This document shows positions 22,887 through 22,975 of a DNA stretch of 64,000 bases, in pieces. The notes beneath the pieces are model-generated. The model was given only the letters and a program-made list of their open reading frames with translations. It made no database searches and was not told the origin of the DNA. A program made the translations under genes and the position numbers. The stretch covers positions 56,810 through 120,809 of the forward strand of contig JAFGHI010000021.1 of the NCBI GenBank assembly GCA_016930235.1, read 5' to 3'. This stretch comes from Candidatus Omnitrophota bacterium. GTDB taxonomy: Bacteria > Omnitrophota > Omnitrophia > Omnitrophales > Aquincolibacteriaceae. Each line of letters opens with the position of its first letter. Position 1 is the stretch's first letter.

Positions 22887-22975
22887 CGTTAAATAAAAAA
22901 GACGCTGCAGGATTATACACTCGCAACGCCTTTTGTAAAAACTCCGCTTCTGGTCGACTTTCGCAACTGGTTACG
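22887..22975 (+). repeat. intergenic element copy A (A-run, hairpin, T-run, then the conserved box)
   Basis: AAATAAAAAAG...GGATTATACAC...AACGCCTTTTGTAAAAA and CTCCGCTTCTGGTCGACTTTCGCAACTGG align with copy B (26256-26365) and partly with C and D. Confidence 0.6.
22912..22939 (-). promoter_or_regulatory. sigma-70-like promoter (TTTACA-16-TGTATAAT) for the DUF4238 gene, embedded in a terminator hairpin
   Basis: The minus strand reads TTTACA aaaggcgttgcgagtg TATAAT with an extended-10 TG. The -10 sits in the loop of the 22901-22930 hairpin. Confidence 0.5.

What the first reader, a model, noticed from the sequence alone, without database searches (positions are those of the whole stretch)
22887..22940. 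Terminator hairpin with an outward sigma-70 -10 in its loop, recurring at three loci (22.9, 26.3 and 34.2 kb)
Copies at 22887-22940 and 34203-34255 share AAATAAAAAAG-[hairpin]-AACGCC-TTTT-GTAAAAA, with GGATTATACAC in the hairpin loop. Read on the minus strand, each gives TTTAC(A/T), a 16-17-nt spacer and TGTATAAT. This is a near-consensus extended-10 promoter whose predicted start lies inside the 3' arm of the hairpin, directly in front of the T-run. In copy A, all 8 stem positions pair (GGCGUUGC/GCAGCGUC, two G-U). Read-through transcripts from upstream would therefore terminate, while transcripts initiating at the embedded promoter cannot form the hairpin. The copy at 26256-26311 has a different, longer hairpin followed by TTTAAC-16-TATAAT. 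The sequence identity outside the -35/-10 hexamers argues for a common origin, for example a small mobile promoter-carrying element, or for a shared regulator. Independently evolved terminators would not share these flanks.
Basis: seen in the sequence. Interest (0 to 1): 0.6.

Follow-up and report, generated by a model that had tools for sequence, protein, structure and literature searches.

The report
Terminator-promoter hairpins at recombinase insertion scars
The repeated hairpins are real copies of a conserved ~60-base module, a tRNA-Asn trailer terminator with a promoter-like -10 box in its loop, and they mark the borders of gene blocks apparently inserted one after another next to a tRNA-Asn gene by large serine recombinases.

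Summary
Copies A (22.9 kb) and B (34.2 kb) are homologous, and on the minus strand, the strand of all local genes, they are two of the three best sigma-70-like sites in 14 kb. They belong to a conserved module: tRNA-Asn 3' end (GGGGAGT), TTTTACCAAA, an 11-bp stem GGCGTTGCGGG/CCTGCAACGCC with loop TGTATAAT, then a T-run. I found it in more than 20 other contigs, and once directly after a real tRNA-Asn. Copy C is a different hairpin, but it matches another genome's tRNA-Asn trailer. Each distal unit, including a fourth at 21.8 kb, carries an exact 16-mer CGACTTTCGCAACTGG on the opposite strand. This encodes ..WLPVLDDFRNWL.., the C-terminal tail of a large serine recombinase family. In two other contigs the 3' end of that recombinase gene overlaps tRNA-Asn, and its tail is replaced by antisense tRNA sequence. 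The window units therefore read as attR-type scars: recombinase P' arm, displaced tRNA end, tRNA terminator. They bound three cargo blocks downstream of tRNA-Asn (34415-34490). No recombinase gene was found in the annotated part of the window. The terminator-plus-promoter function is plausible but untested. Folding supports it for copy A; copy B does not fold significantly. How recombinase-less arrays form is unresolved.

The parts
22888..22951 (-). Copy A of the type-1 module. It consists of a tRNA-Asn 3'-end copy (GCGGAGT), TTTTACAAAA, the hairpin GGCGTTGC(22930-22923)/GCAGCGTC(22908-22901) with the loop holding TGTATAAT, and the T-run 22900-22895.
   Evidence: -16.6 kcal/mol, z -2.9; nhmmer E 2.9e-16
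22912..22939 (-). Sigma-70-like site TTTACA-16-TATAAT, upstream of the DUF4238 gene (start 22834). The predicted start, about 22905, lies in the 3' arm of the hairpin.
   Evidence: 11/12 matches; start position inferred from geometry
22952..22975 (+). Recombinase-tail remnant (P' arm) of unit A: GGTCGACTTTCGCAACTGG.., reading ..LLVDFRNWL.. with no start codon.
   Evidence: (D3)
34200..34264 (-). Copy B of the type-1 module, with a degenerate 3' arm. It holds TTTACT-17-TATAAT (34252-34224) upstream of the hydrogenase/antiporter-like operon (start 34110).
   Evidence: z -0.4; 10/12; E 6.3e-16
34256..34300 (-). Partial duplicate of the tRNA-Asn 3' part. GTCCCTGG and GAGCCCAGG are identical to the tRNA, with an insertion in the T-loop and a truncated acceptor. 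It lies just upstream of copy B.
   Evidence: (read directly)
34415..34490 (-). tRNA-Asn(GTT), the anchor of the array. Its own terminator, GGCCAC..GTGGCC (type 3), lies at 34365-34414.
   Evidence: -27.5 kcal/mol, z -6.7
26256..26311 (-). Copy C: a type-2 long hairpin plus T-run. It is homologous to the hairpin that directly follows tRNA-Asn in L034, and is followed by a weak TTTAAC-16-TATAAT site before the P-type ATPase gene (start 26201).
   Evidence: -28.6 kcal/mol, z -5.1
26327..26428 (+). Unit C: complement of the tRNA end (GACTCCCCGTC), then the recombinase-tail ORF remnant RLPVLDDFRNWLMSSGKVGILK..*. A stop codon lies 5 codons upstream of the DD.
   Evidence: LPVLDDFRNWL matches the C-terminus of LSR fragment P0157, E 1e-7
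21740..21891 (+). It holds a degenerate type-3 hairpin (about 21750-21800), the tRNA-end copy GGCTCCCC (21807-21814), an inserted small hairpin, the 18-mer at 21846-21869, and a tail ORF running to 21891.
26505..34110 (-). Cargo block 1: six-gene Ech/Hyf-like membrane hydrogenase or antiporter operon, lying between copy B and unit C.
23015..26201 (-). Cargo block 2: P-type cation ATPase plus PsiE, lying between unit C and unit A.
21911..22834 (-). Cargo block 3: DUF4238 gene, lying between unit A and unit D.

Best explanation
The 13 kb downstream of tRNA-Asn (34415-34490, minus strand) is best read as a composite island. It consists of gene blocks separated by conserved junction units. Read on the gene strand, each unit has three pieces.

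(i) CCAGTTGCGAAAGTCG(T/A)C. On the opposite strand this encodes ..DDFRNWL.., the extreme C-terminus of a family of large serine recombinases (LSRs) whose attP overlaps the 3' end of their own gene.

(ii) A copy of the last 8-16 nt of tRNA-Asn.

(iii) A hairpin plus T-run of a kind that directly follows real tRNA-Asn genes in related genomes.

The units are therefore attR-type scars: element P' arm, displaced tRNA 3' end, and the tRNA's trailer terminator. It has an 11-bp G+C stem flanked by an A-run and a T-run, and its 8-nt loop is TGTATAAT.

Proposed working, inferred:
- The hairpin stops transcripts coming from the tRNA or the preceding block.
- RNA polymerase binding TTTAC(A/C)-17-TATAAT starts inside the 3' arm. 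That transcript lacks the 5' arm and reads on into the next block.

Shown: homology, hairpin conservation, promoter-like match, the link to tRNA-Asn, and the link to the LSR.

Inferred: recombination history, termination, and promoter activity. For copy B, termination lacks folding support, because its 3' arm is degenerate.
For: - The module recurs with conserved flanks in 20 metagenome stretches, in four sites of three GTDB loci, and twice in the window.
- The 3' arm pairs in 94% of cells against 37-66% for slid controls. Compensatory variants occur in L047, L079 and L014.
- In L047 the module begins immediately after a real tRNA-Asn. The L034 tRNA-Asn is followed by the homolog of window hairpin C. 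The L024 and window tRNA-Asn genes are followed by type 3, which recurs in degenerate form in unit D.
- The exact 16-mer occurs 3 times in the window, all on the plus strand. The 18-mer family occurs in about 37 GTDB loci. Further diverged copies lie on the same strand 0.3-5 kb apart.
- tRNA-Asn or tRNA-Gln sits at the head of arrays in the same orientation. The segment beside the 18-mer follows that tRNA's acceptor strand: GGGGAG for Asn, GGGGCAG for Gln.
- The motif shows a coding signature and continues upstream into ..YRKPFSFIAEGL..SNWLPVLDDFRNWL... Homologs are annotated as site-specific recombinase or CcrB and carry PF07508 and PF13408.
- The L073 ORF has Resolvase, Recombinase and Zn_ribbon_recom domains. 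It aligns to the L053 fragment up to ..WLP and then continues as antisense tRNA-Asn. L088 shows the same arrangement. Other homologs end in WLP(G/R)EDSNL, which is the antisense of a T-arm.
- A and B are among the top three sigma-70-like sites in 14 kb.
- In 14 of 19 scorable copies a co-oriented ORF starts 8-340 nt downstream.
- (T/C/G)ATAAT recurs in the loops of divergent relatives: L014, L026, L043, L074 and L075.
Against: - No LSR or other integrase was found in the window. Pfam was run on the long ORFs between about 12 and 39.5 kb, and tblastn with C-terminal LSR fragments found nothing in the whole window. The rest of the window was not annotated. The recombination history is therefore inferred from other contigs.
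- Arrays of several scars without recombinase genes are not what one simple integration gives.
- There are no transcript data for either the start site or termination.
- Copy B's hairpin is degenerate.
- Three bona fide copies are followed by an antisense ORF (L034, L069, L073). One copy has its loop inverted relative to the GGGGAGT flank (L085). The -35 hexamer is variable.
- The metagenome pattern fixed the 5' arm and loop, so loop conservation within that set is partly by design.
- Covariation is not above the shuffle controls, because the stems vary little.
Confidence: 0.62

Rival explanations
1. The hairpins are only bidirectional intrinsic terminators inherited with the tRNA-Asn trailer. 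The resemblance to a promoter is incidental, arising from an A/T-rich loop and flanks, and the downstream genes are transcribed from elsewhere or by read-through.
For: - The layout is classic terminator anatomy: A-run, G+C stem, T-run.
- The -35 is variable or absent in L024, L068 and L071.
- Three bona fide copies face the 3' end of an antisense ORF, and L085 has its loop inverted.
Against: - An exact TATAAT sits 16-17 nt from TTTAC(A/C) in most copies. The window's two copies score 11/12 and 10/12, with every other non-tRNA site in 14 kb at 9/12.
- -10-like hexamers persist in the loops of relatives whose stems have changed.
- In 14 of 19 copies a co-oriented ORF starts within tens of bases, and it would otherwise lie behind a terminator with no promoter.
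Confidence: 0.22
2. The hairpin is an autonomous miniature mobile repeat of the REP, Correia or MITE type. It carries an outward promoter and spreads by its own transposition.
For: It is a short inverted repeat with a promoter-like box and many copies in metagenomes. Correia elements are a precedent (from my own knowledge).
Against: - The left boundary is always the tRNA-Asn 3' end and never a target duplication.
- Copies cluster in arrays headed by tRNA-Asn. The 64-kb window holds only two, both within 12 kb of the tRNA.
- There are no terminal inverted repeats beyond the stem itself.
Confidence: 0.05
3. The inverted repeat that brackets the -10 box is the operator of a shared repressor that co-regulates the downstream genes.
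For: A dyad symmetry centred on the -10 element is a common operator layout (inference).
Against: - Downstream genes differ completely between copies: hydrogenase operon, DUF4238, deacetylase, glycosyltransferase and others.
- Stem changes preserve pairing rather than sequence.
- The module is tied to the tRNA end and has a T-run.
Confidence: 0.04

Closest known systems
tRNA-targeted integrative elements and tandem accretion islands (CIME-type remnants in Streptococcus; tycheposon islands in Prochlorococcus)
   Same: A tRNA gene heads the island. Partial tRNA repeats mark old junctions, newer insertions push older ones distally, and cargo is left without recombination genes (tycheposon preprint 10.1101/2020.12.28.424599; CIME from my own knowledge).
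   Different: The recombinase family linked to the repeats here is a large serine recombinase, not a tyrosine recombinase. The tRNA-derived repeat is only 8-16 nt. Each junction also carries a conserved recombinase-tail coding remnant and a tRNA-type terminator.
SSV-type integrases of archaeal viruses (attP inside the integrase gene; the gene is split on integration)
   Same: The attachment site lies inside the recombinase reading frame and matches a tRNA gene, so integration changes the recombinase gene product (from my own knowledge).
   Different: Only the last roughly 10-30 codons are exchanged, not the gene split in two. The enzyme is a serine recombinase and the hosts are bacteria.
Integron gene-cassette arrays
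   Same: There is a series of mostly co-oriented one- to few-gene blocks, each followed by a conserved recombination-site remnant, next to a fixed anchor site.
   Different: No IntI was found in the annotated window ORFs. There is no attC architecture: the R''/R' order was checked by eye and not met. The blocks appear to bring their own promoter instead of relying on Pc.
Correia (CREE) and other promoter-carrying intergenic repeats
   Same: A short hairpin-forming repeat supplies a -10/-35 reading outward and can act on transcripts as a stem-loop.
   Different: There are no terminal inverted repeats with TA duplication, and the hairpin is not dispersed genome-wide. It is bound to the tRNA-Asn 3' end.
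RtT / tRNA-linked repeats downstream of E. coli tyrT
   Same: Repeats downstream of a tRNA gene each contain the tRNA's 3' end (from my own knowledge).
   Different: Those are tandem 178-bp repeats without cargo genes or any link to a recombinase.

Membership tests
Rho-independent (intrinsic) terminator | G+C-rich stem-loop immediately followed by a U-run on the transcribed strand | tested here: met
   Copy A gives -16.6 kcal/mol (z -2.9) followed by UUUUUU. Copy C gives -28.6 kcal/mol (z -5.1) followed by UUUUU. The family stem pairs in 94% of cells. Copy B itself is degenerate (z -0.4).
Rho-independent (intrinsic) terminator | Transcript 3' ends at the U-run | not testable with these tools
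   Needs Term-seq or 3' RACE.
Sigma-70 promoter | -35 and -10 hexamers with 16-18 nt spacing | tested here: met
   Copy A scores 11/12 and copy B 10/12, both among the top three of 21 sites in 14 kb.
Sigma-70 promoter | Extended -10 (TGn immediately upstream of TATAAT) | tested here: not met
   The sequence is GTGTATAAT, so TG abuts the hexamer. The scan reports 'TG_before_second: no'.
Sigma-70 promoter | Mapped transcription start | not testable with these tools
   Needs dRNA-seq or 5' RACE.
Large-serine-recombinase integrative element (att junction) | Recombinase with Resolvase, Recombinase and zinc-ribbon domains associated with the site | tested here: inconclusive
   Met in L073: PF00239, PF07508 and PF13408. 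Fragments occur in L053, L088 and P0158-P0174. No such gene was found in the window. Pfam covered the long ORFs between about 12 and 39.5 kb, and tblastn used C-terminal fragments only.
Large-serine-recombinase integrative element (att junction) | One junction joins the recombinase-side arm to the target (tRNA) and the other joins the element's far arm to the displaced target end | tested here: met
   attL type: the LSR 3' end runs into antisense tRNA-Asn in L073 and L088. attR type: the DDFRNWL-coding arm, the tRNA 3' end copy and the tRNA trailer hairpin are found in window units A, C and D and in many loci.
Large-serine-recombinase integrative element (att junction) | Demonstrated recombination between attP and attB, with a central dinucleotide crossover | not testable with these tools
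   The crossover is only bracketed to the acceptor/T-stem region, by comparing ..WLP|VLDDF.. with ..WLP|RVGSN...
Integron | intI gene, attI, and attC sites with R''(RYYYAAC)...R'(GTTRRRY) in that order | tested here: not met
   No integrase was found in the annotated window ORFs. GTTGCGA and ATTTAAC occur, but in the reverse order relative to an attC (read).
MITE / Correia / REP repeat | Terminal inverted repeats with target-site duplication; dispersed copies | tested here: not met
   The left edge is always GGGGAGT of tRNA-Asn. Only two copies occur in 64 kb, both in the tRNA-Asn array.
Known structured RNA family (Rfam) | Match to a covariance model | tested here: not met
   Only the tRNA is hit. 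No match up to E = 10 in 21600-26520.

The most novel reading that the evidence does not exclude
The units may define an integron-like capture system run by large serine recombinases. In this reading, recombinase-less cassettes are inserted one after another at tRNA-Asn by an LSR acting in trans. Each cassette would carry its own tRNA-end copy, a combined terminator and promoter, cargo, and a P' arm. The LSR itself would exchange its C-terminal tail on integration, from DDFRNWL.. in the free element to an antisense-tRNA-encoded tail in the integrated state. That exchange could serve as a built-in switch of directionality. The related tail motif in Planctomycetota, Zixibacteria and Acidobacteriota would then make this a widespread, undescribed mode of island building.
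Probability: 0.2. Interest if true: 0.8.

Novelty: new variant of a known kind. Interest (0 to 1): 0.55.

Why it matters
For annotation, the analysis turns an odd repeated hairpin into a usable landmark. The module GGGGAGT, hairpin, T-run, together with the 18-mer, marks the borders of acquired gene blocks next to tRNA-Asn in Omnitrophota-like genomes. The same repeats explain why short-read assemblies break there.

For mobile-DNA biology, it points to a family of large serine recombinases with three unusual traits:
- They target tRNA 3' ends, which is usually the territory of tyrosine integrases.
- They keep attP inside their own reading frame, so the protein's C-terminus changes on integration.
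- They encode a tRNA terminator within their coding sequence.

If the terminator-plus-promoter logic is confirmed, it would be a compact natural insulator part. It would stop incoming transcription and restart it within about 45 bases.

Tried and rejected
- **Integron attC.** GTT/AAC core-like heptamers are present but in the wrong order, and no IntI was found.
- **tmRNA-like tag.** The ORF has no start and, in Zixibacteria and Acidobacteriota, ends in ..AA*. ARAGORN and Rfam find no tmRNA, and there are several copies per genome.
- **Independent small protein or leader peptide.** The codon before DDF is always NTG in the Omnitrophota group. The idea was dropped once the ORF was seen to continue upstream into LSR C-terminal sequence.
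- **Excisionase (HTH_17) C-terminus.** This was a resemblance from memory only. Pfam gave no hit to these ORFs.
- **tRNA-like fold of the 18-mer.** No T-arm pairing is possible.
- **Tyrosine-integrase island.** Only 2 weak Phage_integrase hits among 113 neighbouring ORFs, one of them a truncated gene beside tRNA-Pro.
- **Searches that led nowhere.** The viral contig scan gave 0 hits. Literature searches for the 16-mer and for DDFRNW gave 0 papers. The DUF4238 protein search, meant to test cassette mobility, found only the same sample's contig and distant homologs.
- **GC profile of the island.** 41-51% G+C, not decisive.

Full report
**1. The observation**

All genes around the finding lie on the minus strand.
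- Copy A (22887-22940) sits in the 180-nt gap between the stop of a PsiE gene (23015) and the start of a DUF4238 gene (22834).
- Copy B (34203-34255) sits between tRNA-Asn (34415-34490, with its own strong terminator) and the first gene of a six-gene Ech/Hyf-like operon (start 34110).
- Copy C (26256-26311) sits between the end of that operon (26505) and a P-type ATPase gene (start 26201).

A and B are 79% identical over 47 nt. GGATTATACAC occurs exactly only at these two sites.

On the minus strand the consensus scan lists TTTACA-16-TATAAT for A (11/12) and TTTACT-17-TATAAT for B (10/12). With the tRNA-Asn promoter these are the three best sites in 21-35 kb. The TG abuts TATAAT, so the 'extended -10' label is not exact.

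Folding results:

| Copy | Strand | Energy (kcal/mol) | z-score |
|---|---|---|---|
| A | minus | -16.6 | -2.9 |
| A | plus | -8.4 | -1.0 |
| B | minus | -12.6 | -0.4 (3' arm decayed) |
| C | minus | -28.6 | -5.1 |

Copy C is a different, longer hairpin than A and B.

**2. A second repeat next to the hairpins**

The repeat finder and the DNA search show an exact 16-mer, CGACTTTCGCAACTGG, three times on the plus strand, at 21849, 22955 and 26344.
- These sites lie just upstream, in gene sense, of hairpins A and C.
- The third lies at a fourth site, 21.8 kb (unit D), downstream of the DUF4238 gene.
- On the gene strand each is followed by ACGGGGAG(T/C)C or GCGGAGTT. This resembles the tRNA-Asn 3' end GCGGGGGAGTC.
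- Copy B has no 16-mer. It is preceded by a partial duplicate of the tRNA-Asn T-arm and acceptor, with GTCCCTGG and GAGCCCAGG identical to the tRNA.

**3. The hairpin module elsewhere**

A metagenome scan with AAGGCRYTRYGRGYGTATAATCY returned 20 stretches. These copies, like the four sites in three GTDB loci, share one architecture:

(C)GGGGAGT, TTTTACCAAA, GGCGTTGCGGG, TGTATAAT, CCTGCAACGCC, TTTTTTATT

- Two stretches depart from this. L082 lacks the 3' arm and is probably a chance hit. In L085 the GGGGAGT flank lies on the other side of the hairpin, so the loop is inverted relative to it.
- The 3' arm was not in the pattern beyond its first two bases. It pairs in 94% of cells against 37-66% for slid partners.
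- Compensatory variants occur in L047, L079 and L014. The stems vary too little for covariation to exceed the shuffle controls.
- Relatives with changed stems still have TATAAT, CATAAT or GATAAT in the loop: L014, L026, L043, L074 and L075.
- In 14 of 19 scorable copies the next ORF is co-oriented and starts 8-340 nt after the hairpin.
- Of the five antisense cases, one is L082, which lacks the 3' arm, and one is L085, whose loop is inverted.

**4. The tie to tRNA-Asn**

In L047 the module begins immediately after a real tRNA-Asn...GCGGGGGAGT|TTTTACCAAAAGGCGCTGCGGGTGTATAATCTCGCAGCGCCTTTTTT.
- In L034 the tRNA-Asn is followed by a long hairpin homologous to window copy C.
- In L024 and in the window the tRNA-Asn is followed by a GGCCAC..GTGGCC hairpin. 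A degenerate copy of it sits in unit D.
- All three hairpin types are therefore tRNA-Asn trailer terminators in some genome, and all recur at distal units.
- tRNA-Asn heads arrays in the same orientation in the window, L024, L034, L047, L073 and L088. tRNA-Gln does so in L015, L037 and L041.
- In those tRNA-Gln loci the segment beside the 18-mer reads GGGGCAG, like the tRNA-Gln acceptor, instead of GGGGAG.

**5. What the 16/18-mer is**

An exact scan of GTDB genomes with GWCGACTTTCGCAACTGG gave 66 stretches.
- About half look like chance hits inside genes of high-G+C taxa.
- About 37 form a family in Omnitrophota, Planctomycetota, Armatimonadota, Zixibacteria, Ignavibacteriales and Acidobacteriota.
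- Further diverged copies lie on the same strand 0.3-5 kb away, so the copies form arrays.
- In 21 of 27 Omnitrophota-type units the 83 nt after the tRNA-end copy fold significantly better than shuffles (z at or below -2.2).

The motif reads as ..W-L-P-V-L-D-D-F-R-N-W-L.. on the strand opposite to the genes. It shows a coding signature:
- synonymous changes;
- an F-to-Y change made by two substitutions;
- an in-frame 3-nt deletion;
- tail subfamilies conserved at the protein level.

It usually has no start codon.

A profile search of 1.84 billion representative proteins found 309 hits, almost all short ORFs with the motif at their C-terminal end. In several the ORF continues upstream as ..EEKAKILQLIASNYTLVD..YRKPFSFIAEGL..SNWLPVLDDFRNWL... 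Homologs of that stretch are annotated 'site-specific DNA recombinase' or 'cassette chromosome recombinase B' and carry PF07508 and PF13408.

The L073 ORF has Resolvase, Recombinase and zinc-ribbon domains.
- It aligns with the L053 fragment at 50% identity up to ..WLP.
- It then continues as RVGSNHGQSD*, encoded by the antisense of the tRNA-Asn gene it overlaps.
- L088, an NCBI Omnitrophica MAG, shows the same overlap.
- Six other homologs end in WLP(G/R)EDSNL.., which is the antisense of a GGTTCGAATCC T-arm.

The attachment site of this recombinase family therefore lies inside the 3' end of its own gene. Integration into the tRNA swaps the last codons. The DDFRNWL-coding arm ends up at the far junction, joined to the displaced tRNA end and the tRNA's trailer. 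That is exactly the composition of window units A, C and D. Window unit C matches the LSR C-terminus directly (LPVLDDFRNWL).

**6. Reading of the window**

On the gene strand the order is:
1. tRNA-Asn
2. its type-3 terminator, a 110-nt remnant and a partial tRNA 3' copy
3. copy B
4. the hydrogenase-like operon
5. unit C
6. ATPase and PsiE
7. unit A
8. DUF4238
9. unit D
10. acyltransferase and SGNH-lipase genes

I read this as an island built at tRNA-Asn by serial site-specific insertions, with the recombinase genes since lost.

No LSR or tyrosine integrase was found in the window. Pfam was run on the long ORFs between about 12 and 39.5 kb. tblastn with C-terminal LSR fragments found nothing in the whole window. 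The rest of the window was not annotated.

Neighbouring arrays in other contigs carry diverse cargo.

How arrays form without recombinase genes is not settled. Three possibilities remain open:
- Re-use of the regenerated tRNA as attB, followed by loss of the recombinase genes.
- Recombinase-less cassettes moved in trans.
- Homologous exchange between the modules. L024 has a direct repeat of more than 170 nt starting at GGGGAGT.

**7. Function of the hairpin**

Shown: a conserved stem, a T-run, a -10 hexamer in the loop with TTTAC(A/C) 16-17 nt upstream, and a co-oriented gene just downstream in most copies.

Inferred: the hairpin terminates incoming transcripts, while a transcript starting 6-8 nt after the TATAAT, inside the 3' arm, cannot form it and proceeds. 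For copy B the termination half lacks folding support.

The main rival is that it is only a terminator and the promoter match is incidental. Support for the rival comes from three bona fide copies that face antisense genes, from L085 with its inverted loop, and from the variable -35.

**8. Comparison with known systems**

The closest frameworks are:
- tRNA-anchored islands with partial-tRNA scars and tandem accretion (tycheposons; CIMEs, from my own knowledge);
- SSV-type integrases whose attP lies within the gene (from my own knowledge).

The differences here are the serine recombinase, the exchange of only the C-terminal tail, the very short tRNA repeat, and a terminator or promoter module at each junction.

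It is not an integron, a MITE or an Rfam family (see the membership tests).

I found no paper containing the 16-mer or the peptide.

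Noticed in passing
L073 12943-12972; L088 7207-7236; L053 about 5985-6015: The recombinase peptide ..RKPF..(I/V)A(E/K)GL.. is encoded by an inverted repeat, AAGCCCTT..AAGGGCT. On the tRNA strand this repeat forms a hairpin with a T-rich tail right after the tRNA-Asn 3' end. 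It appears to serve both as protein code and as a terminator for the tRNA.
   Followed up: partly
L024 (reverse complement) about 3238-3420 and 7358-7560: A direct repeat of more than 170 nt at about 95% identity, starting exactly at GGGGAGT, follows both the real tRNA-Asn and the most distal unit. This is much longer than a simple att core.
   Followed up: partly
L004, L008, L010, L035, L036, L050, L021, L019, L040, L048, L049, L056, L065: In Zixibacteria, Ignavibacteriales and Acidobacteriota the same 18-mer sits in a start-less ORF ending ..DDFRNW(V/L)(I/V)xxAA*, with synonymous variation. It usually lies downstream of ordinary same-strand genes. P0067 shows it after a frameshifted tyrosine-recombinase ORF. 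Its relation to the Omnitrophota LSR family was not resolved.
   Followed up: partly
L085 2670-2730: This is a type-1 hairpin whose loop (and hence the TATAAT) is inverted relative to the GGGGAGT flank.
   Followed up: no
window 34165-34195: The sequence AAACCCGACACTTTTGGAAACGGTAC just downstream of copy B recurs near hairpin units in L078, L081 and L034. It is a conserved piece of unknown role.
   Followed up: no
L053 3124-5457; L075 5986-8337: IS21 (IstA/IstB) copies are inserted next to an LSR C-terminal fragment in L053 and next to a partial tRNA-Asn in L075.
   Followed up: partly
window 34533-34561: A near-consensus promoter-like site, TTGACC-17-TATAAT, lies 43 nt upstream of tRNA-Asn and is probably the tRNA's own promoter.
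   Followed up: no
L001 and L089 (Logan contigs of SRR13394437): Short-read contigs of the source sample end at or near the repeat units (copy B/tRNA and unit D). The repeats therefore break assemblies.
   Followed up: no
window 26505-34110: This is a six-gene Ech/Hyf-type membrane-bound hydrogenase or Mrp-antiporter-like operon, including a fused 30-kDa/49-kDa subunit of 602 aa. It lies as one block between two junction units and so may have been acquired.
   Followed up: no
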